From positions 1 through 9,527 of IMG/VR virus record IMGVR_UViG_2609459864_000003: DNA of 9,527 nt; one strand, written 5' to 3'. This DNA is from a virus (Duplodnaviria; Heunggongvirae; Uroviricota; Caudoviricetes). Below the pieces are notes generated by a model that had not been told where the DNA came from, did not search any database, and saw only the letters and a program-made list of their open reading frames with translations. Both the position numbers and the translations under genes were made by a program. This document shows positions 1,043 to 9,120 of the stretch, piece by piece; position 1 is the first letter of the stretch, and every line of letters starts with the position of its first letter.

Positions 1043-4000
1043 TCAGCTGATACTGATGCCTGCGGTGGCTTTCTTCATCACCACAACCAGCAAATCGCTG
1101 ATACTTGCTGTGGGATACCAGTTATTCACCAGCCATGCTGACACCGAAAACTCCAGTGTCATGTGACCGTGACCGGCAGGCATATCAATAACACCACTGT
1201 AAATCAGCGTATTATCCAGCGCGGTACGGTTATAAATTTCAGCACCGTTTTTCCGCACTATCAGACGGCATGAGGAGTAAATATCAGTATGCTCTTTCTC
1301 ATGTTTAGCGCCGCTGAATGCCACCGCCGGAATAACAATCTGCCGGTCAAACGGCTGATCGTCATAAACCCTGACGGTAATGGTCCCTGATGGCCACCGC
1401 TCCGGTGCACGGGAGTCCCGGGGGAAAGCTTTGCCCACTGTTTTAACGAGATCGCCTTCAATCTGGTTGGCGGACAGTTTTCCCAGAACCCGACAGTTTT
1501 CGTTAATCGTGACGTTGTTGAGCGTCCCGGAGTTCGCATTCACGTTACCGCTGATATCGGCATTTTTCGCCGTCAGCCGCCCGTCCGGTGTCAGGGAAAA
1601 TGCCGGAGGATTACCGCCGCTGGTAATGGTGGGAGCCGTCAGGTATTTCAGGAACACTTCGTTCATGAATATCTGATCGCCCTGACCAACAAACATCGGC
1701 TTTGTGTTGCCATTCGCAGGATTAATCATCGCAATCCGGTCAGCAGCCAGAAGCACCTGACTCTGCATACCTGCTGGCGTATTCTCAATACCGGCTCCGA
1801 TACCCGCAATATAAAGGCGTCCGTCCTTCATCTGCTGCAGTTTCACGGCCCACATGCTGTTCAGGTTATTATTTGTATCAACCTGAACTTTCTGTATCTG
1901 CTGGATTGCCGCACTCTGATTTTCCAGTTTTTTATTGACGGTCTGCGTGATTTCATTGCTGACATTCGTAATGGACGTCCTGATTTCAGCCAGATCAGGC
2001 GCAAGCTGACCGTTATCAATCTGTGTCCACAACTCCTGAGCCAGATGGGTTTTCCCTATCTCTCCTTTGAAAAAATCCAGATAGCCGGATGCATCATCAC
2101 TCGGCTGGCCAACAGCCTCCACAAATGCCGATTTGCCAACAGTATTCACACTGCGGATATAAAAATAATAATCATGGCCCGGTTTGATATTGATACTGGC
2201 AGCTATCCAGTACAGCGCCGAGCCAAGATAGCGGGCTGCGGTTTCAACCTGCCTGATATCCGCAATCCGCTTTTCCGAGAACCAGAACTCAAACTGTACC
2301 GTCGGGTCATAAACGGCAAGATGCGGCGTGGCGGGTATCTGAAAATAGCCCGGCGTCAGCTCAATCCGCGACGGTGCTGCCGGTGCGGCAATCCGGAAGG
2401 TGGTGGTGGCAGGTTCACCCTGCTGGCCATAGCTGTTTATCGCCCGCACCGTCAGGGTGTATTCCCCGAGCGGCAGGCCGCTGAAACGGTGCTCCGTGTC
2501 TGCGGTGATGGCGGTGGTCACCAGTCTGGCATCCGTTCCCTTACCACTGGTCAGGCGCAGACTGAAGCGCACACCCTTCACCACCCGCGGCGTGTCCCAT
2601 TTCGCCTGCGCCAGATACTGGCCGTCAGCTGCGCTCACCTCCACCGTCAGGTGCTGCACTGCCGGTGGGATGACGCTGTTCAGGGAACCTGACTGCGGCT
2701 CAAAGCGGGCACCGTTATCCACGATGGCTTCTTTTTCCGGTACGTGCTGCACCGCCGTGATGGCAAAGGTGCCGTCCGTGTTTTCCCGGATGGAGACACA
2801 GCGGAACAGGCGACGGCGCAGTGACGGCAGGGAGAGTCCCCACACCCCGTATGTCTCCACACCATCAGGCAGGGTACTGACCTGTATCCGGTCCGGCGCG
2901 GGGTGTTCGGTGATGTCCACACTCACCGGCTTACCGCTGCCGTTAATCAGGTTCACCGTGGCGGCACCGGTCTCCGGAAGTGTCACTTCACGGTCCAGCG
3001 TCAGGGTGCGGGTGGCAGCATCAATGGACAGGACACGTCCGCCGGTCAGAGTCCCGGCATAGTCGTTATCACAGATTTCAATGATGTCACCGGGTGTGTG
3101 CCGCAGCCCCTGAGACCCGAGCGTGAAATCCACCGTCTGCGTTTCCAGCAGTTCGGTCTTTATCACCCACAGTCCGGCACGGTGGGCCTGACCGCGGCTG
3201 GTACAGCCGAACGCGTCCATCTTCAGCAGGTTGCGTCCGTAGCGCAGTATGGCTTCCGGGTCTTCCACCAGTTCCGTGGAGGTCTGCCAGCCGTTCTGCG
3301 GGTCGGTGTAATTCACCTCCACCGCCGTGTGCCGGTCCTTCAGGGCACTGAAGCTGTAGCGGAATCCCACGCCGTTATCATCCACCACCACATCGCTGTT
3401 GGTGTACGGCCACACCACATCCGACGGGCGGTCCTGAACGAACGTCAGCGTCTGACCGTTCCATACCGGCATACAGCGCATCGCAGAGCAGAAATCACTG
3501 AGAACGTCCCACGCCTTACGCTGTTGTGCCAGGTACGCATTAAAGGTCATCCGCGGCTCTGTCCCCCCGAAACCATCCGGGACCGTCTGGTCGCAGTACT
3601 GCCCGATGGCATACAGCGCCCACTTGTCCACATCCGCCGCCCCCAGACGTTTTCCCATGCCGTAGCGCGGGTGAGTCAGCATGTCCCACAGGCACCAGGC
3701 CGGGTTGTTGCTGTATGCCGGTTTCAGACTGCCGTCCCAGATACCACTGTACGTGCGTTTTTCCGGGTCATAGTTTGACGGCACCTGGATGATGCGACCG
3801 CGGATATGGTAGTTCACCGTCATCTGCTGGCCGCCGAACTGCTCCGCATCCACCTGCAGCCCCACAATGGCCGTGTTCGGGTAATCGAGGCTGAGGGCTT
3901 TCTTAATCTCGTATCCGTGTCTGCGGTAGCACTGAATTAGCCACTCGGCCTGTTCTTCAGTGCATGGGGGATGCTGGAACCAGTCAGATTTGAAAGTGCG

Positions 4001-4072
4001 GGAACGCCGCCCGTGCCTGCTGGCAGGGGCGGCAGAGTTATCCGAATTGTAAAATTTGGTATCGTGCGCCAT
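1043..4072 (-). CDS. J: tail-tip host specificity protein J, N-terminally truncated fragment
   Basis: The track ORF 1043..4201 aligns by eye with lambda J from about ORF residue 107 ([20 protein letters not shown]... versus lambda KQCYPNTALVGVQVDSEQFGSQQ...) through the C-terminus, including the conserved [13 protein letters not shown] and [30 protein letters not shown] blocks. The first ~106 residues do not resemble J. The hok terminator lies at 4141-4170, so I place the plausible start at the internal ATG 4070-4072 ([10 protein letters not shown]...). Roughly 200 N-terminal residues of a full-length J and all upstream tail genes are absent. Confidence 0.85.
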
Positions 4073-4140
4073 CTGTTTTCTCTGCTGGCGCAGCAGGTGC
4101 CAGTTGTTCAGGCTGACGGATGGATTGTAAACCAGAACGA

Positions 4141-4170
4141 CCAGAAAAAACAAAACCCGCCGAAGCGGGT
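4141..4170 (-). terminator. hok mRNA intrinsic terminator
   Basis: Stem aacccgc (4153-4159) / gcgggtt (4164-4170) with a 4-nt loop, followed on the minus strand by UUUUGUUUUUUCUGG (plus 4141-4152). Lies about 70 nt downstream of the hok stop. Confidence 0.6.
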
Positions 4171-4239
4171 TAAGTGCGGGTGCGTTGAGGATGCCTGACA
4201 CATCAGCGGTGGCGAGGGATTTCTCCCCCGCCGGGTCTC

Positions 4240-4395
4240 TTACTCCTCAGGTTCGTAAGCTGTGAAGACAGCGACCTCCGTCTGGCCGGTTCGGATTCGT
4301 ACCTCGCAGAGGTCTTTCCTCGTTACCAGTGCCGTCACTATGACGGTTAAACAGATGACGATCAGGGCGATTAACATCGCCTTTTGCTGCTTCAT
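4240..4395 (-). CDS. hok: Hok/Gef family type I toxin (51 aa; HokD/RelF-like or HokC/Gef-like)
   Basis: My own translation of the minus strand gives [51 protein letters not shown]: a single transmembrane helix plus the conserved RKDLCE and VAVF(T/M)AYE motifs of Hok/Gef proteins. SD ggaga lies upstream of the ATG at 4393-4395. Below the 60-aa cutoff of the ORF track. Confidence 0.93.
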
Positions 4396-4451
4396 AGCCT
4401 GCTTCTCCTTGACCTTTCGGTCCGTAAGAGGCTAATCTCTATGTGTCGCAT
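4392..4451 (-). CDS. mok: mok-like leader ORF (19 codons) translationally coupled to hok
   Basis: Minus-strand ATG at 4449-4451 opens [19 protein letters not shown]; its stop TGA overlaps the hok ATG (AUGA). The position matches the mok reading frame of plasmid R1 hok/sok, though it is much shorter here. Confidence 0.4.
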   Translation of the reverse strand: MRHIEISLLRTERSRRSRL

Positions 4452-4510
4452 AGATATGGCCTCAGATTAATGTTAAGCGTCTTGCAGGACGCGTAATGTT
4501 AACTGGGGCT
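4440..4510 (+). ncRNA. sok: putative Sok-like antisense RNA; ends approximate
   Basis: Plus-strand promoter-like hexamers TTGACC (4409-4414) and TAATCT (4433-4438) with an 18-bp spacer, pointing opposite to hok. The transcript would be antisense to the mok start region of the hok leader, as in known hok/sok loci. A hairpin gcgtct-tgca-ggacgc sits at 4478-4493. Exact 5' and 3' ends cannot be fixed from sequence. Confidence 0.35.
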
Positions 4511-4570
4511 TTTCTCTATCTGCCTTTTGGTGTTCATGCCTGAGACAGATAGCCTCAAGCACCCGCAGTC

Positions 4571-4599
4571 ATTCTACTTAACTAAGATTTCCCCGCAAA
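4571..4599 (-). promoter_or_regulatory. putative hok promoter
   Basis: Read on the minus strand: -35 TTTGCG (plus 4594-4599), 17-nt spacer, -10 TAGAAT (plus 4571-4576). It sits just upstream of the gcttgaggct 5' motif that aligns with the 5' end of R1 hok mRNA as I recall it. Confidence 0.4.
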
Positions 4600-4653
4600 C
4601 CGTTTTTGTCCGGCACAGTAAATATCCAACTAAACCAATGGCGTTCGCTGTAT

Positions 4654-4833
4654 TTACCGCCAGTATTCAATGCACATGACCGCCATGAACACCCCTAAAA
4701 AAAGGGCATTTATATATCCAAATATTAATATCAAAACATCAACTTTTTCCATATACCTTGCTGTGAAGATGATGGGCATACATGATACGAACAACCAGAA
4801 CGCAACAAACAAAAACTGCAATGCGTTTTTCAT
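4654..4833 (-). CDS. hypothetical small membrane protein (59 aa, two predicted hydrophobic helices)
   Basis: Internal ATG (4831-4833) of track ORF 4654..4872 is preceded by a strong SD aggagg. Product MKNALQFLFVAFWLFVSCMPIIFTARYMEKVDVLILIFGYINALFLGVFMAVMCIEYWR is dominated by two hydrophobic segments. Lies in a markedly AT-rich stretch (about 4680-4980). Confidence 0.5.
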   Translation of the reverse strand: MKNALQFLFVAFWLFVSCMPIIFTARYMEKVDVLILIFGYINALFLGVFMAVMCIEYWR

Positions 4834-5062
4834 TATTCCTCCTACAATCAATGTGCAATTACATTTAAACACACCTCAATTTGGCCGGACATATAAATAT
4901 CTAAACCAGAAAAAATCACTTACATAGCGTTACAAACTCTTTAGTCTAAATATTCATCGTAAAACATTCCCCATACTTATCAGCCCGTTCTGCGCCAGGT
5001 AGCTCATTGCCTTATCTGGGAATCTGTAATCAGGTTTCCGGATGCTGGTGGATTTTCGCGTT

Positions 5063-5320
5063 TTAGTTGTTCATAAAAGTGCACAGCTTTAACCAGTTCT
5101 TCTGATGTAACCGGGACTGGCGGGGCAGTGAATAAGGCCTGAATTTCATAGTTCGGCCTGTCGTTACAATCCTCTTTTTTCGGTACATATTTCCAGTCAC
5201 CAGACCACTACTTCCCCTGAAAGTCCGTAACGCCTTTTTTTTCACGTAGCGATATCGCCATGCCACTGTTTTTGCTTGCCCCGCCGTTTCATGCCCTTCC
5301 TGATAATTAACCTCGCTCAT
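5063..5320 (-). CDS. hypothetical ORF with Ea22-like start (MSEVNYQ...), possibly a frameshifted pseudogene
   Basis: ATG 5318-5320 overlaps the stop of the upstream 58-aa ORF (ATGA). The first codons agcgaggttaattatcag resemble the ea22-like start at 8185 (agcgaaattaattaccag). After homopolymer runs (A8 on the coding strand = plus T-run 5227-5234; A6 = plus 5171-5176) the product becomes an implausible K/R-rich string, while another frame carries a more protein-like open stretch ending at 5004. Confidence 0.3.
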   Translation of the reverse strand: MSEVNYQEGHETAGQAKTVAWRYRYVKKKALRTFRGSSGLVTGNMYRKKRIVTTGRTMKFRPYSLPRQSRLHQKNWLKLCTFMNN

Positions 5321-5493
5321 TCATCGCCCCACTCATCACAATATGCTTCGACCGGAGTTTTTCCTGCTTCATAATCATCACGCCATGCTTCAGCATCAGC
5401 AGCACTGCCACCACGTAACTCTGCATAGTCCATTAACAGTTCATGCCATGCTTCAAAACTGACGTTGTATTTAGTTGAACCAAAATCAGCCAT
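5317..5493 (-). CDS. hypothetical small acidic protein (58 aa)
   Basis: Not in the track (below 60 aa). ATG 5491-5493 overlaps the stop of the upstream ORF (ATGGCTGA). Translation MADFGSTKYNVSFEAWHELLMDYAELRGGSAADAEAWRDDYEAGKTPVEAYCDEWGDE. The stop overlaps the next start. Confidence 0.5.
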   Translation of the reverse strand: MADFGSTKYNVSFEAWHELLMDYAELRGGSAADAEAWRDDYEAGKTPVEAYCDEWGDE

Positions 5494-5668
5494 TTTGCTC
5501 TTCCTCTTCGTCTTTTATTTCGTGATATGAGTAATTGCAGTAGTTAAAGAAAATATCTTTTGCTTCGTCATGTATTTCATCAGGCGTCGCATCATCATCC
5601 ACTTCGAATTCATCCTCGAAATCTCCACCGGCTATTCCCGTTTCAATAATTATTTTAAACTTTCGCAT
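5486..5668 (-). CDS. hypothetical small highly acidic protein (60 aa)
   Basis: Track ORF; MRKFKIIIETGIAGGDFEDEFEVDDDATPDEIHDEAKDIFFNYCNYSYHEIKDEEEEQNG, about 40 percent D/E. An SD AGGAGG is present, but it is separated from the ATG by a GC hairpin (see the regulatory feature at 5676-5697). Confidence 0.55.
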   Translation of the reverse strand: MRKFKIIIETGIAGGDFEDEFEVDDDATPDEIHDEAKDIFFNYCNYSYHEIKDEEEEQNG

Positions 5669-5675
5669 TTAACTA

Positions 5676-5697
5676 CCGCCCTTTCGGGCGGCCTCCT
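5676..5697 (-). promoter_or_regulatory. SD-hairpin-AUG translation initiation structure
   Basis: Minus strand reads AGGAGG (plus 5692-5697), then hairpin ccgccc-GAAA-gggcgg (plus 5676-5691), then uaguuaa, then AUG (plus 5666-5668). Linear SD-to-AUG distance is 23 nt; folding the GNRA hairpin would bring them into normal spacing. Confidence 0.4.
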
Positions 5698-5761
5698 GAT
5701 GTTCTGATGGTGCAGAAATCCCTCCGGTTAAGGATTAAATTTTTAACAGAGCTAAATTTAA

Positions 5762-6118
5762 TTATTCAGTTCTGGATTTTGTCGCCCTGCGTATCCGCGC
5801 TTTCGCGTTACGCTCAATCTGAATTAGCTTTTCTATATTTTTTCGCCTTTCCCGCTCCTCCTGGCGCAAGTGCCTTACATCATCTGCCAGTCTGGTTTCT
5901 CTTTTCGCCACAGAGAGCATCCAGTCAAATGGTTCCACAACTGCACCGCAGATTTTACAGCGGACCTGACGCTCTTTTTCGTCAACCCGGACAGAGGCGT
6001 GATGACAATATGGTCTTTCCGATGGCTCATAAAGAAAATTAACCTGATTACGAGGGTCATCCTCTTTTACCGGAAATAAAACGATATTGCTTAACTCATC
6101 CTCTGGTTTTATTTCCAT
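5762..6118 (-). CDS. hypothetical protein with putative zinc-ribbon (C-HH ... C-x2-C) and basic coiled-coil C-terminus (118 aa)
   Basis: Internal ATG 6116-6118 of track ORF 5762..6175 has SD aaggagagg; the track start at 6175 is a GTG inside the upstream scar. Product MEIKPEDELSNIVLFPVKEDD...PYCHHASVRVDEKERQVRCKICGAVV... followed by an R/K/E-rich tail. Confidence 0.6.
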   Translation of the reverse strand: MEIKPEDELSNIVLFPVKEDDPRNQVNFLYEPSERPYCHHASVRVDEKERQVRCKICGAVVEPFDWMLSVAKRETRLADDVRHLRQEERERRKNIEKLIQIERNAKARIRRATKSRTE

Positions 6119-6239
6119 GCTCCTCTCCTTTGATGCGAATGCCAGCGGTAATTGAAGCCTGATAGCTAATTTCACTCACAGTACCGCCTCCTGAAAATTT
6201 AATGAACAATTCAATACGTTCTTTGGTAATAGTGGTCAT
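6096..6239 (-). pseudogene. deletion scar: chimeric 47-codon ORF built from gene-start and gene-end fragments
   Basis: ATG 6237-6239 with SD aaggag. Product MTTITKERIELFIKFSGGG-TVSEISYQASITAGIRIKGE-EHGNKTRG. Its first codons match the start of the 135-aa gene at 6922 (MITITKG...). An internal aggaggcggtact-GTG-agtgaaattagctatcag copies the RBS and start of the ea22-like gene at 8185, fused directly to a copy of the ea22-like 3' end (AGIRIKGE). Confidence 0.4.
6123..6148. repeat. 26-bp gene-boundary repeat, copy 1 (ctctcctttgatgcgaatgccagcgg)
   Basis: Exact 26-nt identity with 7438-7463. Here it lies inside the scar, read in a different frame relative to the next start codon because of a 1-nt indel just outside the repeat. 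Confidence 0.8.
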
Positions 6240-6249
6240 GTGTTACTCC

Positions 6250-6513
6250 TTAACCCGCAGTGCTTTCAACTGATGAGGGGAACAAAATCTTTTCATCAAA
6301 CCCTGCATTCATATCATGAACAGCAACACACCAATCCATCGACGAACGATTATCAAGAGCCTCCATGATTTCATCCATGCGGCGCAGGTCATACAGGTAA
6401 ATGCTTTTATCGCCAATGGTGTAAAAACCAATTTTTTTCGGTGATGGGCAGCGATCAAGAACGTCCTGTAATTCGTTCAACCATGCCCGTTCTTTTTTTG
6501 TTAAAGTTGCCAT
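6250..6513 (-). CDS. hypothetical protein (87 aa)
   Basis: Internal ATG 6511-6513 of track ORF 6250..6573, preceded by SD aaggagag within the conserved junction gccatatcactctccttt (6509-6526). Product MATLTKKERAWLNELQDVLDRCPSPKKIGFYTIGDKSIYLYDLRRMDEIMEALDNRSSMDWCVAVHDMNAGFDEKILFPSSVESTAG. Confidence 0.6.
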   Translation of the reverse strand: MATLTKKERAWLNELQDVLDRCPSPKKIGFYTIGDKSIYLYDLRRMDEIMEALDNRSSMDWCVAVHDMNAGFDEKILFPSSVESTAG

Positions 6514-6514
6514 A

Positions 6515-6922
6515 TCACTCTCCTTTCCCATGAAGCATAGCGGCGCGGCAGGCGTTCCATATTTCGGCAGCAATATCGCGCTCGCTATCGGTTAATTTGT
6601 ACGTGGAAACATAGCCAGAGAGCATTTCTACGTTTTCCGGAGTTGCTTCTTCCGGCACTATCGGCGCTGGAGGGGCGGCAAATAGATATCCGCCAAAGTC
6701 AGGAAGCTCTCCAATGGCCTGTACGAACTTTTGTTTGCCTACGTCAACTCCTAATGGGTAATGAGCTATAATCTTTGCCACCGGCTCTGCTTCCAGCGAT
6801 ACCAGTGCAATTCGTGCCAGTTCTTCCGCTTCTTCTGCTGGCAGTACAACGTTGCTACCCGGTCCGTATGTTTCGCGCCACTGCTTGATTGTCAGCAGTC
6901 GCCCTTTGGTAATAGTGATCAT
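6515..6922 (-). CDS. hypothetical protein (135 aa)
   Basis: Track ORF; the start ATG overlaps the stop of the upstream nuclease gene (ATGA at 6919-6922); SD aaggaa. No motif I can recognise. Confidence 0.7.
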   Translation of the reverse strand: MITITKGRLLTIKQWRETYGPGSNVVLPAEEAEELARIALVSLEAEPVAKIIAHYPLGVDVGKQKFVQAIGELPDFGGYLFAAPPAPIVPEEATPENVEMLSGYVSTYKLTDSERDIAAEIWNACRAAMLHGKGE

Positions 6923-7434
6923 GCCGCGTTTCCTTCTTTCTTATTAACAATCACACCGTCATATATTTCATTAAGGTGCCCTCTCAACTCCATGCGCCTT
7001 AATGCAGATAACATGTAATCGCATTCAACCTGCTTATTCCCAGTAAATGGCTTATCGTCAGGATTACCCCAACAGCAATTACCCCTGGGCCATCCATGTA
7101 CTTTCCGTACTCTTCCGTTAACAACGTGAAGTAATCCCCAGCCGGGAGGTAAATCCTCAACTGAAATAATTTCCGGCTCACTAATAAAGAATCGCCAGTC
7201 GCCCATGCCAAGTGAGGGATTTTTACGGAAACGCTTTTTTCTATCTGCCAACAAGTCAGCACGAGAACACTTCGCCTCTATCAGGCATGATGCTGAATTT
7301 CTGAATCCCATAGCATCTGGCTGTTCTCCGGTACTGGTTACAGCAACAAAGCGGTCATGAAAGCAAACCTTGAACCCGTTGCGCTTAAGGAACTTGTACG
7401 CAATCTGACAGAGTTCGCGGTGTGTTAACGCCAT
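6919..7434 (-). CDS. putative PD-(D/E)XK-type nuclease (171 aa; VRR-NUC / MmcB-like motif arrangement)
   Basis: Track ORF with SD aaggagag. The product contains ...VAVTSTGEQPDAMGF(x9)CLIEAKCSRADL...: an acidic residue, a PD dipeptide and an E-x-K triad at the spacing typical of restriction-endonuclease-fold nucleases. Family assignment is from motif only. Confidence 0.7.
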   Translation of the reverse strand: MALTHRELCQIAYKFLKRNGFKVCFHDRFVAVTSTGEQPDAMGFRNSASCLIEAKCSRADLLADRKKRFRKNPSLGMGDWRFFISEPEIISVEDLPPGWGLLHVVNGRVRKVHGWPRGNCCWGNPDDKPFTGNKQVECDYMLSALRRMELRGHLNEIYDGVIVNKKEGNAA

Positions 7435-7435
7435 A

Positions 7436-8185
7436 TCACTCTCCTTTGATGCGAATGCCAGCGGCGCGGATTGCAGCGATGACTTCAGAAACTTTGTATG
7501 CCATTACCGTTTGGTAATCATCGTGAAAATCTGTTCGATGAAGCATGCTGCTACGTTCCGGGAGCGATATTTCCCGAGCATCCAGTTCCTTAACGCGTTC
7601 CTCCAGTTCGTAGACCCTGCATTGTTCTCTATCATCAATCAGATATAACCCAAGACATTCGCTTTCTACCCAACCGCCAAAATCATGATCGTAACGCTCA
7701 CATGAAAACTCACCGTCACCGTCCTTTGTTGGAATGGTGTAACTATCTAATGGGCCACCATATGTCGGCACATTCCCCAATGTTGGATGCTCAATCCACA
7801 TGAAAAATGCACGTCCGGTTATTGGGCAAATATCTGGCCGCCATTGGTTACGAACAGCCTTGGTTTCGGATAATTCTTCAGCGTGTTGTTTTACTTCCTC
7901 AAGCTCAACTCTCAGCTTCCCTACCGTTAGCGCAATATCCTCGTTCTCCTGGTCGCGGCGTTTGATGTATTGCTGGTTCCTTTCCCGTTCATCCAGTAGT
8001 GCCAGCACGGTTTCTGGTCCGGTCAGAAATTTGAAGGCATTGAGCGCATCAATATCCACACCGTAATCTTTAAGTTCCTGTTCACTTAACAAATCATCAT
8101 CAGTTGGCAACATTAACAGGCGTTCCATTGCTGGAATTGCACGTTCTGCTGCCTCACGCAGTGCCTGGTAATTAATTTCGCTCAC
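7436..8185 (-). CDS. Ead/Ea22-like family protein (249 aa)
   Basis: GTG start 8183-8185 preceded by a strong SD aaaggagg; the track's longer ORF to 8368 has no better start. N-terminus VSEINYQALREAAERAIPAMERLL...ETVLALLDERERNQQYI... matches the pattern I recall for Ead/Ea22-like prophage proteins. Central coiled-coil, cysteine-rich C-terminal half. Confidence 0.7.
   Translation of the reverse strand: MSEINYQALREAAERAIPAMERLLMLPTDDDLLSEQELKDYGVDIDALNAFKFLTGPETVLALLDERERNQQYIKRRDQENEDIALTVGKLRVELEEVKQHAEELSETKAVRNQWRPDICPITGRAFFMWIEHPTLGNVPTYGGPLDSYTIPTKDGDGEFSCERYDHDFGGWVESECLGLYLIDDREQCRVYELEERVKELDAREISLPERSSMLHRTDFHDDYQTVMAYKVSEVIAAIRAAGIRIKGE
7438..7463. repeat. 26-bp gene-boundary repeat, copy 2
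   Basis: Identical to 6123-6148. Here it encodes the C-terminus AGIRIKGE of the ea22-like protein plus the SD of the downstream nuclease gene. The overlapping 18-mer gccatatcactctccttt (7430-7447) recurs at 6509-6526. Confidence 0.8.
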
Positions 8186-8352
8186 TGGTTGCCTCCTTTG
8201 CGAAGCTCTGCGGCTAAATACTCCAACGCCATTATGTGGCGTGTTCCCCAACCAGGACGGTACGTTCACCGCGATGACGTATACCAAAAGCAAAACGTTT
8301 AAAACCGAAAATGGTGCCCGTCGCTGGCTGGAAAGAAACTCAGGTGAGTGAT

Positions 8353-9067: not shown

Positions 9068-9120
9068 TTTCTGGTGACGTTTGGCGGTATCAGTTTTACT
9101 CCGTGACTGCTCTGCCGCCC
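9068..9120 (+). ncRNA. dicF: DicF small regulatory RNA (53 nt; ftsZ-targeting sRNA of Qin-type prophages)
   Basis: tttctggtgacgtttggcggtatcagttttactccgtgactgctctgccgccc matches the DicF sequence as I remember it, followed by a T5 run (9121-9125). It is embedded in an ORF-free, hairpin-rich region between ydfC and dicB, exactly as in K-12. Confidence 0.8.

What the first reader, a model, noticed from the sequence alone, without database searches (positions are those of the whole stretch)
5317..5668. Two translationally coupled, very acidic small proteins (candidate DNA mimics or anti-defence factors)
Adjacent 60-aa and 58-aa ORFs overlap by ATGGCTGA. Both are extremely D/E-rich (runs such as DFEDEFEVDDD and DEEEEQ) with scattered aromatic residues. 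Small acidic proteins in phage early regions are frequently DNA mimics that inhibit restriction or other nucleic-acid-targeting defences, and these sit in the same operon as a nuclease-fold protein.
Basis: inference. Interest (0 to 1): 0.55.

Follow-up and report, generated by a model that had tools for sequence, protein, structure and literature searches.

The report
Two small acidic mobile-element accessory proteins
Two real, very acidic ~60-residue genes of unknown function sit in the accessory early region of a decayed E. coli lambdoid prophage; they belong to two unrelated families (one also common on conjugative plasmids) and remain untested, plausible candidates for host- or defence-blocking proteins.

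Summary
On the minus strand, a 60-aa ORF (5668..5486, net charge -15) and a 58-aa ORF (5493..5317, net -11) overlap by ATGGCTGA. Both are conserved under purifying selection.

They are not a dedicated pair. p60 belongs to Pfam DUF7167, with a predicted beta-hairpin plus helix. Relatives occur in Klebsiella, Enterococcus, Pseudomonas and Phapecoctavirus phages. p58 belongs to a small family with no Pfam model (PHROG 519), predicted as a three-helix bundle. Relatives occur in Ackermannviridae, a T5-sized phage, Enterobacter prophages and 561 plasmid records, 516 of them conjugative, mostly IncI2. Each gene occurs elsewhere without the other, and tight overlaps are normal in this operon.

Acidity is conserved across both families. 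Neither shows sequence, profile or fold similarity to Ocr, ArdA, Gam, gp5.9, anti-CRISPRs or any solved structure. A resemblance to T7 Gp2 failed a profile test.

The anti-defence or DNA-mimic idea is therefore neither confirmed nor refuted. My working explanation, inferred only, is that each is a stoichiometric binder of a basic nucleic-acid-binding surface on a host protein. The claimed nuclease-fold neighbour has no significant support. In this window the prophage is a deletion remnant.

The parts
5486..5668 (-). p60: 60-aa DUF7167-family protein (MRKFKIIIETGIAGG...KDEEEEQNG), net charge -15. The AF2 model has strand 2-8, strand 17-23 and helix 29-43, followed by a conserved C-terminal 'CNYxYHEI' segment and an acidic tail.
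   Evidence: ORF; charge; Pfam PF23768 at E 7.9e-15 and 55.1 bits; phrog_1997 at E 9e-31; AF2 pLDDT 85.5; conservation; purifying selection.
5317..5493 (-). p58: 58-aa protein of a family with no Pfam model (PHROG 519 C-terminal part), net charge -11. Predicted three-helix bundle (H13-27, H34-42, H47-55). W37 is invariant and F13, W16, Y41, G44 and P47 are nearly invariant.
   Evidence: ORF; charge; phrog_519 at E 2e-22; no Pfam hit for any of 30 members apart from a DUF1187 fusion artefact; 58 representative clusters; alignment; AF2 pLDDT 88.2; dN/dS 0.08-0.34.
5486..5493 (-). The 8-nt overlap ATGGCTGA: the p58 start codon lies inside the last codons and stop of p60. The same ATGGCTGA junction joins DUF1187 to the p58 homologue on IncI2 plasmids, so it travels with the 5' end of p58.
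5502..5506 (-). GAGGA Shine-Dalgarno-like motif for p58, 8 nt before its ATG. It is encoded by the GAA/GAG codons of the acidic tail of p60.
   Evidence: sequence read directly.
5675..5697 (-). AGGAGG (5697-5692) followed by a 7-bp GC-rich hairpin with a GAAA loop (5692-5675), ending 6 nt before the p60 ATG. Possibly a split ribosome-binding site in which the hairpin brings the SD close to the start codon. It lies in the only sizeable intergenic gap (93 nt) of the operon.
   Evidence: It is conserved in nearly all of the 87 E. coli copies examined. Variant copies carry C-to-U changes in the 5' arm that would keep pairing as G-U. No promoter-like or terminator-like site is found there.
5762..6118 (-). 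118-aa basic zinc-ribbon/coiled-coil protein (phrog_1621) that accompanies the pair upstream in most E. coli prophage copies and in Stx phage ArgO145.
   Evidence: found within about 650 nt upstream in 75 of 80 loci; ArgO145.
5063..5320 (-). 85-aa ORF overlapping p58 by ATGA. It is the frameshifted remnant of a 119-aa protein that is intact in phage vB_EcoS-689R5, and RefSeq calls it a pseudogene.

Best explanation
These are two independent, compact, highly acidic accessory proteins of mobile genetic elements. Recombination has placed them side by side in the delayed-early operon of Rac/Qin-type and some Stx lambdoid phages.

Each is too small to be an enzyme. Each is predicted to fold into a mini-domain whose conserved hydrophobic and aromatic residues form the core and whose conserved acidic residues coat the surface. 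p60 is a beta-hairpin plus helix. p58 is a three-helix bundle.

The most likely mode of action is stoichiometric binding to, and blocking of, a positively charged nucleic-acid-binding surface. The target would be a host protein, or a protein of a competing element, and binding would occur soon after DNA entry or prophage induction. This is the working principle of Ocr, ArdA, Gam, gp5.9 and several anti-CRISPRs. It could serve anti-defence or host takeover.

Shown here: the genes, selection on them, conserved acidity, the predicted folds, operon position and distribution. Inferred only: that they bind a protein target, what that target is, and any effect on defence.
For: - Real genes under purifying selection.
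- Acidity is a family property, not a local accident. The DUF7167 set has median net charge -13 over about 57 aa, and the p58 set has median -10 over 58 aa. Acidic positions are conserved at E9, E22, D24-26, D30/E31 and D38 in p60, and at positions 14-15, 38-39, 42 and 53-54 in p58.
- The models are confident and compact (pLDDT 85.5 and 88.2).
- In intact relatives the genes lie between the replication genes and hokD/rusA/Q, or in the pL segment between the recombination genes and int. These are accessory early regions.
- The p58 family spans temperate phages, virulent Ackermannviridae, a T5-sized phage, and 561 plasmid records of which 516 are conjugative, including IncI2 and IncT. What these elements share is entry of DNA into a new cell.
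- DUF7167 spans phages of Proteobacteria and Firmicutes. In Guernseyvirinae it sits directly upstream of, and overlapping, an exonuclease gene next to a gp2.5-like SSB. From my own knowledge, this position resembles gam-bet-exo in lambda and gene 5.9-gene 6 in T7.
Against: - There is no homology or fold similarity to any known DNA mimic or anti-defence protein.
- No experimental report was found.
- Many small phage proteins are acidic for unrelated reasons.
- In Ackermannviridae the p58 homologue lies just downstream of the major capsid gene, which does not look like an early region.
- On IncI2 plasmids it lies about 15.5 kb from mobC/relaxase, behind a CaiF/GrlA-type regulator at the head of the transfer genes, not clearly in the leading region.
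- DUF7167 neighbourhoods are heterogeneous: exonuclease, Dam/theta-like, and TelA/TerD clusters.
- In this window the operon has lost its native promoter region, and several neighbours are pseudogenes.
Confidence: 0.38

Rival explanations
1. They modulate the developmental decision or host physiology rather than defence. Like the small exo-xis-region proteins of lambda and Stx phages (Orf60a, Orf61, Orf63, Orf73, Ea8.5, Ea22), they would tune lysogeny versus lysis, or host transcription or replication.
For: In Stx phage ArgO145 the pair sits among Ea22-like genes between the recombination module and int. In the window and in Enterobacter prophages they adjoin Ead/Ea22-like genes. Exo-xis proteins are similarly small, are transcribed early, and affect lysogenisation and induction (PMC8614690, read; PMC3824215 abstract).
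Against: Lambda has no homologue: tblastn against 50,697 phage records found only 38 records for p60 and 198 for p58, none reported as lambda. p58 relatives occur in strictly virulent phages and in plasmids, which have no lysis-lysogeny decision. DUF7167 also occurs in virulent Enterococcus and Phapecoctavirus phages.
Confidence: 0.22
2. They are accessory subunits or chaperones of the element's own DNA-processing machinery (exonuclease/recombinase, replication or transfer apparatus), not inhibitors of host proteins.
For: The DUF7167 gene overlaps the start of a 454-aa exonuclease gene in Guernseyvirinae and directly follows an exonuclease gene in Enterococcus Herelleviridae. In a P22-like prophage it lies after ERF/SSB/Dam and before a DNA pol III theta-like gene. 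A p58 homologue follows an Rv2179c-like exonuclease gene in one contig, and on IncI2 plasmids it heads the transfer-gene block.
Against: No partner gene is consistent across contexts. In E. coli prophages there is no adjacent nuclease or recombinase. In Phapecoctavirus the neighbours are TelA/TerD-type genes.
Confidence: 0.15
3. p60 and p58 work together as a two-subunit unit, for example a heterodimeric inhibitor. This would explain the conserved adjacency and translational coupling.
For: All 80 IMG/VR loci carrying p60 have p58 immediately downstream. The pair is found in two different operon contexts, the pR nin-like region and the pL region of ArgO145.
Against: Those loci are near-identical E. 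coli prophages, and the zinc-ribbon gene moves with the pair, so the adjacency may be a single mosaic block. Outside E. coli each gene occurs without the other: Klebsiella phage ST512-KPC3phi13.3 has a 70% p60 homologue and no p58, while Enterobacter prophages and IncI2 plasmids have p58 and no DUF7167. Both proteins are strongly negative, which argues against electrostatic pairing. Overlapping junctions are the rule in this operon.
Confidence: 0.1
4. p60 is a distant relative of the T7 Gp2 RNA-polymerase inhibitor. Gp2 is a beta-beta-alpha-beta protein with an acidic strip that binds the beta-prime jaw in the DNA channel, and p60 would act on host RNA polymerase.
For: The predicted order of secondary-structure elements is the same, and a 'KF..(I/V)E(S/T) ... 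FEV..A.T.DE.. ... (G/S)(F/Y).E' pattern is shared. A permissive hhalign run aligns 43 columns at 26% identity. The Gp2 structural details come from my own knowledge.
Confidence: 0.04

Closest known systems
Pfam DUF7167 (PF23768) / PHROG 1997
   Same: p60 is a full-length member: 55.1 bits against a 24.4-bit cutoff, covering profile positions 1-60 of 60, with the same length and the same conserved IET, FEV-DDAT and CNY motifs.
   Different: Nothing differs, but the family has no assigned function and no paper in the searched library mentions it.
PHROG 519 and the 58-aa protein WP_000753050.1 of IncI2 plasmids
   Same: p58 aligns end to end at 86% identity with the IncI2 protein. Both have net charge -11, and the gene start has the same ATGGCTGA overlap with the upstream gene.
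   Different: The upstream partner is DUF1187 (basic, unrelated by hhalign) instead of DUF7167. The setting is a plasmid transfer-region operon rather than a phage early operon. Function is unknown in both.
Small acidic DNA-mimic inhibitors (T7 Ocr, plasmid ArdA, lambda Gam, T7 gp5.9, phi29 p56, Ugi, AcrIIA4/AcrF2)
   Same: Small size, very high negative charge density, carriage by phages and plasmids, and expression from early or accessory regions. For DUF7167 in Guernseyvirinae, the position next to an exonuclease/annealing module resembles gam and gene 5.9. The comparison of properties rests partly on my own knowledge.
   Different: There is no sequence, profile or fold similarity to any of them. 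No evidence of dimerisation, of phosphate-like spacing of carboxylates, or of any target.
Exo-xis region small proteins of lambda and Stx phages (Orf60a, Orf61, Orf63, Orf73, Ea8.5)
   Same: About 60-aa single-domain proteins in mosaic early accessory segments next to Ea22-like genes, with poorly understood functions.
   Different: Not homologous. According to the modelling paper read, Orf60a and Orf61 are modelled as DNA-binding domains and Orf73 as a TraR-like zinc protein. p60 and p58 are strongly acidic and also occur in virulent phages and plasmids.
T7 Gp2 (Pfam RNA_pol_inhib, PF16857)
   Same: Similar length, similar predicted beta-beta-alpha(-beta) order, and an acidic surface.
   Different: The profile comparison is not significant and the key arginines are absent.

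Membership tests
Pfam DUF7167 (PF23768) | Whole-protein HMM score above the curated gathering cutoff, with full-length coverage | tested here: met
   p60 scores 55.1 bits against a 24.4-bit cutoff at E 7.9e-15, with residues 2-53 on profile positions 1-60 of 60. RefSeq names the identical protein 'DUF7167 family protein'.
PHROG 519 (p58 family; no Pfam model) | Significant HMM match, and the shared F13/W16/W37/Y41/G44/P47 signature | tested here: met
   phrog_519 at E 2e-22. The signature is conserved in 30-32 diverged members. No Pfam family is matched by the members.
Ocr (T7 gp0.3) DNA mimics | Sequence or profile match to the Ocr family | tested here: not met
   No Pfam hit at E<=1 for either protein other than DUF7167 and a spurious AnkX_ins match. 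No PDB sequence or profile hit.
Ocr (T7 gp0.3) DNA mimics | Elongated all-helical dimer whose carboxylates mimic bent B-DNA | tested here: not met
ArdA / KlcA anti-restriction proteins | Sequence or fold match to ArdA (three-domain elongated dimer) or KlcA | tested here: not met
   No Pfam, NCBIfam or PDB hits. No fold hits.
RecBCD inhibitors (lambda Gam, T7 gp5.9) | Sequence or fold match, or a helical coiled-coil dimer | tested here: not met
   No PDB sequence, profile or fold match. Only a positional analogy for DUF7167 next to an exonuclease in Guernseyvirinae.
RecBCD inhibitors (lambda Gam, T7 gp5.9) | Binding to and inhibition of RecBCD | not testable with these tools
   Needs biochemistry or genetics.
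Anti-CRISPR proteins | Similarity to a solved Acr | tested here: not met
   No similarity to any solved structure.
Anti-CRISPR proteins | Adjacency to an HTH aca regulator gene | tested here: not met
   The Pfam scan of the neighbours found no HTH regulator in the operon. The downstream gene is a frameshifted remnant of a 119-aa protein.
T7 Gp2 RNA polymerase inhibitor (PF16857) | Significant profile match | tested here: not met
   No PF16857 hit. hhalign of family profiles gives E 0.08-0.6 and probability below 1%.
T7 Gp2 RNA polymerase inhibitor (PF16857) | Conserved Arg56/Arg58 on strand 3 | tested here: not met
   The equivalent positions are variable in DUF7167.
Known anti-phage defence systems (PADLOC) | HMM match to a defence-system component | tested here: not met
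   No PADLOC hit for p60, p58 or their neighbours at E<=0.1, apart from one non-significant MTase_II hit on the zinc-ribbon protein.

The most novel reading that the evidence does not exclude
The 58-aa three-helix protein defines a new, uncurated family of broad-range anti-defence or host-neutralising proteins. The family is shared by lambdoid prophages, virulent Ackermannviridae and conjugative plasmids, including the IncI2 backbone that spreads mcr-1. It would act as a minimal acidic decoy for a conserved DNA-binding host enzyme such as a restriction complex or RecBCD. DUF7167 would be a second, independent decoy fold used from Enterococcus to Pseudomonas phages.
Probability: 0.2. Interest if true: 0.7.

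Novelty: new member of a known kind. Interest (0 to 1): 0.42.

Why it matters
If either protein blocks a defence system or a core host enzyme, it would add a new minimal fold to the anti-defence repertoire, because neither model resembles any solved inhibitor.

The p58 family would be of practical interest. Close homologues sit on hundreds of conjugative IncI2 plasmids, the main vehicles of mcr-1, and about 45% of complete E. coli genomes carry the prophage copy. This could give a handle on how phages and plasmids establish themselves in new hosts.

If they turn out to be ordinary modulators of the element's own functions, the finding is a routine pair of uncharacterised accessory genes.

Tried and rejected
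- **Known families.** Pfam, PHROG, NCBIfam and PADLOC scans of both proteins and eight neighbours gave only DUF7167, uncharacterised PHROGs, Ead/Ea22 and Hok.
- **Solved structures by sequence.** PDB searches with single proteins and with family profiles found nothing below E 0.01. The weak hits were a designed repeat protein, AnkX, SecA and uL23.
- **T7 Gp2 lead from memory.** I built a 23-sequence Gp2 alignment and ran hhalign. The result was not significant, so I rejected it as homology.
- **DUF1187 as a distant DUF7167 relative.** DUF1187 is the plasmid partner of p58. hhalign found no similarity, and it is not the N-terminal half of phrog_519 either.
- **Domain fusions as functional hints.** The longer database entries are alternative upstream starts, frameshift fusions (DUF1187+p58), a duplication, or a probable assembly chimera with GmhA at the shared GGSAADA string. 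None is informative.
- **Literature.** I searched for DUF7167, the WP accessions and peptide strings, and searched the supplements of two anti-defence screens and the plasmid leading-region paper. There were no mentions.
- **Toxin-antitoxin pair.** Rejected, because both proteins are acidic and neither has a TA-family hit. The real TA locus here is hok/sok, 900 nt downstream.
- **Chance ORFs.** Rejected on conservation and dN/dS.

Full report
**What is in the sequence.** All relevant genes are on the minus strand. A 60-aa ORF (p60, 5668..5486) and a 58-aa ORF (p58, 5493..5317) are present as described. The junction reads ...CAA AAT GGC TGA with ATG GCT GAT in the other frame, so the two share the 8 nt ATGGCTGA. 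p60 has 20 D/E and 5 K/R (net -15, pI 4.05). p58 has 15 D/E and 4 K/R (net -11, pI 4.06). p58 in turn overlaps the next ORF by ATGA. A GAGGA motif 8 nt before the p58 start is encoded by the GAA/GAG codons of the acidic tail of p60.

**They are real genes.** p60 is a full-length member of Pfam DUF7167 (55.1 bits against a 24.4-bit cutoff) and of phrog_1997. p58 matches the C-terminal part of phrog_519. RefSeq annotates both in a genome segment 100% identical to window 3882-8234. Against diverged homologues, non-synonymous change is far lower than synonymous change, with dN/dS of 0.08-0.34 or saturated dS at dN of 0.12-0.37. The 471-bp segment occurs in 2438 of 5426 complete E. coli genomes.

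**Genomic setting.** In intact relatives the genes lie in a delayed-early operon. They sit between the replication genes (O-like, DUF977/LygF) and hokD-rem-DUF968-rusA-Q.
- In Stx phage ArgO145 the same block lies in the leftward operon, between the RecT/exonuclease/SSB module and int, among Ea22-like genes.
- The operon is tightly packed. Successive junctions are +1, -4, +1, +10, -23, +93, -8 and -4 nt, so the overlap is ordinary.
- The window itself is a remnant. Left of about 3882 the sequence continues into a tail-fibre J gene body and lom instead of rem..Q.
- Right of about 8235 it jumps to ydfA-ydfC-dicF. It therefore lacks the 4.1 kb that carry the remaining Ea22-like genes, replication genes, cro and the repressor.
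- In the identical RefSeq sequence several neighbours are pseudogenes. The gene after p58 is frameshifted. Only fragments are annotated within the 135-aa and 171-aa ORFs.
It has no significant Pfam or PDB hit, only a weak PHROG 'DNA repair protein' match at E 0.0047.

**Two independent families, not a dedicated pair.** In 80 of 80 IMG/VR loci carrying p60, p58 follows directly, and the zinc-ribbon gene lies within about 650 nt upstream in 75 of them. These are near-identical E. coli prophages, so this could be a single mosaic block. Elsewhere the genes separate.
- DUF7167 relatives occur without p58 in these settings:
  - Klebsiella phage ST512-KPC3phi13.3, at 70% identity.
  - Guernseyvirinae, where the gene overlaps the start of a 454-aa exonuclease gene next to a gp2.5-like SSB and the DNA polymerase.
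  - Enterococcus Herelleviridae, directly after an exonuclease gene.
  - A P22-like prophage, after ERF/SSB/Dam.
  - Phapecoctavirus-type phages, inside a TelA/TerD-like cluster and next to a possible paralogue.
  - Pseudomonas, Clostridia and Bacilli genomes.
- p58 relatives form a small family: 58 representative clusters among 1.84 billion proteins, almost all standalone at 50-65 aa. They occur without DUF7167 in these settings:
  - Ackermannviridae, just downstream of the major capsid gene.
  - Phage vB_EcoM_IME392 and Enterobacter phage Arya.
  - Enterobacter prophages, directly after an Ea22-like gene.
  - 561 plasmid records, 516 of them conjugative.
- About 420 of the plasmid records are IncI2 plasmids such as R721 and mcr-1 plasmids. 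There an 86%-identical gene follows a CaiF/GrlA-type regulator and a DUF1187 gene.
- That junction has the same ATGGCTGA overlap, and the gene lies ahead of SPFH/NfeD and the type IV secretion genes.
- It lies about 15.5 kb from mobC/relaxase, so a leading-region location is not established.
- More distant homologues lie in runs of small genes on IncT Rts1 and on large MOBH plasmids.

**Structure and comparison with known inhibitors.** With family alignments, AlphaFold2 gives confident compact models.
- p58 is a three-helix bundle (H13-27, H34-42, H47-55; pLDDT 88.2). Its conserved F13, W16, W37, Y41 and P47 fit a small hydrophobic core.
- p60 has a beta-hairpin (2-8, 17-23) and a helix (29-43), with pLDDT 85.5. 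Its strongly conserved C-terminal 'CNY(G/S)(F/Y)xE' segment is modelled as coil. By inference, that segment may form a strand only in an oligomer or complex.
- Sequence and profile searches of the PDB are also empty.
- Membership of the Ocr, ArdA/KlcA, Gam, gp5.9 or solved anti-CRISPR families is therefore tested and not met.
- I noticed from memory a resemblance of p60 to T7 Gp2: the same order of elements and a shared FEV..A.T.DE pattern. Profile-profile comparison with a 23-sequence Gp2 alignment is not significant (E 0.08-0.6).

**What most likely happens.** Acidity is conserved across both families. Median net charge is -13 for DUF7167 and -10 for the p58 family, with recurrent acidic positions. 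The proteins are too small for catalysis.
- The p58 family is shared by elements whose only common need is to establish incoming DNA in a cell.
- These facts best fit stoichiometric binders of a basic, nucleic-acid-binding surface on a host or competitor protein. That is the working principle of DNA-mimic anti-defence and host-takeover proteins.
- This is an inference. The target, the effect and true mimicry are untested, and I put it at roughly 0.4.
- The rivals are: exo-xis-type developmental or host-physiology modulators (about 0.2); accessory partners of the element's own exonuclease, replication or transfer machinery (about 0.15); a true p60-p58 heterocomplex (about 0.1); and a Gp2-like RNA-polymerase binder (below 0.05).

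**Novelty and verdict.** DUF7167 is already catalogued but uncharacterised. The p58 family has no Pfam model. No paper in the searched library mentions either one. Its interpretation is a reasonable hypothesis that the available computations neither support directly nor exclude. The most useful new facts are these:
- The two genes are independent.
- Both folds lack known counterparts.
- The p58 family is widespread on conjugative plasmids as well as on phages.

Noticed in passing
window 5675-5697 (minus strand): AGGAGG is followed by a 7-bp GC hairpin with a GAAA loop that ends 6 nt before the p60 ATG. This may be a split ribosome-binding site in which folding brings the SD to a normal distance. 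It is conserved in nearly all of the 87 E. coli copies examined. Variant copies carry C-to-U changes in the 5' arm that would keep pairing as G-U. The roughly 50 nt including the hairpin also occur in phages mEp460 and Rac-SA53, which have no p60.
   Followed up: partly
L150 1090-1474 (plasmid R721) and L151 7793-8177 (pXH987-MCR): A p58 homologue (86% identity) is a backbone gene of IncI2 conjugative plasmids, including mcr-1 carriers. It is joined to a DUF1187 gene by the same ATGGCTGA overlap and lies behind a CaiF/GrlA-type regulator and ahead of SPFH/NfeD and T4SS genes. In total 561 plasmid records carry a homologue.
   Followed up: partly
window ~3882 and ~8235: The prophage is a deletion remnant. 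Compared with an otherwise identical segment of NZ_OZ040035.1, the window joins the hok side to the body of a tail-fibre J gene, producing a 1052-aa chimeric ORF. On the other side it lacks about 4.1 kb of Ea22-like, replication, cro and repressor genes and abuts ydfA-ydfC-dicF.
   Followed up: partly
window 4240-4564 (minus strand): A hok/sok type I toxin-antitoxin locus. The Hok-family 51-aa ORF (4395..4240) matches PF01848 at E 1.2e-23, and the sok antitoxin RNA (Rfam RF01794, 106.7 bits) lies at 4393-4564.
   Followed up: yes
window 9069-9120 (plus strand): A DicF antisense sRNA gene (Rfam RF00039, 76.7 bits). It places the right end of the window in the dicB-type operon of a Qin-like prophage.
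   Followed up: no
window 4654-4872 (minus strand): A 72-aa ORF, or about 59 aa from the internal Met, that is very hydrophobic (two likely membrane helices) and AT-rich (36% GC). It lies between the p58-side genes and hok. It is conserved in Shigella flexneri and has no family hit.
   Followed up: no
L011 2310-2674 and L099 2804-3174: In Phapecoctavirus-type phages the DUF7167 gene is preceded by a 64-65-aa gene that looks like a diverged paralogue (MRIRVY...ACNSFGFEIL...EEEE). Both sit inside a TelA / vWA-TerF-like / TerD gene cluster.
   Followed up: no
window 6919-7434 and 6515-6922 (minus strand): The 171-aa and 135-aa ORFs give very strong PHROG matches (E 2.5e-121 and 6e-26). RefSeq nevertheless annotates only short pseudogene fragments within them in the identical sequence. 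The PD-(D/E)XK-like 'nuclease' reading of the 171-aa ORF has no significant Pfam or PDB support.
   Followed up: partly
protein P0123 (ENA contig of 667 nt): An 84-aa database protein joins the N-terminus of a GmhA/SIS-type isomerase to the C-terminal half of p58, exactly at the shared peptide GGSAADA. This is probably a metagenome assembly chimera, not a real fusion.
   Followed up: no
L094 3001-3180 and the adjacent p58 homologue (Shigella flexneri): Both genes carry in-frame stop codons in the Shigella flexneri representative genome, so the pair is decaying in that lineage.
   Followed up: no
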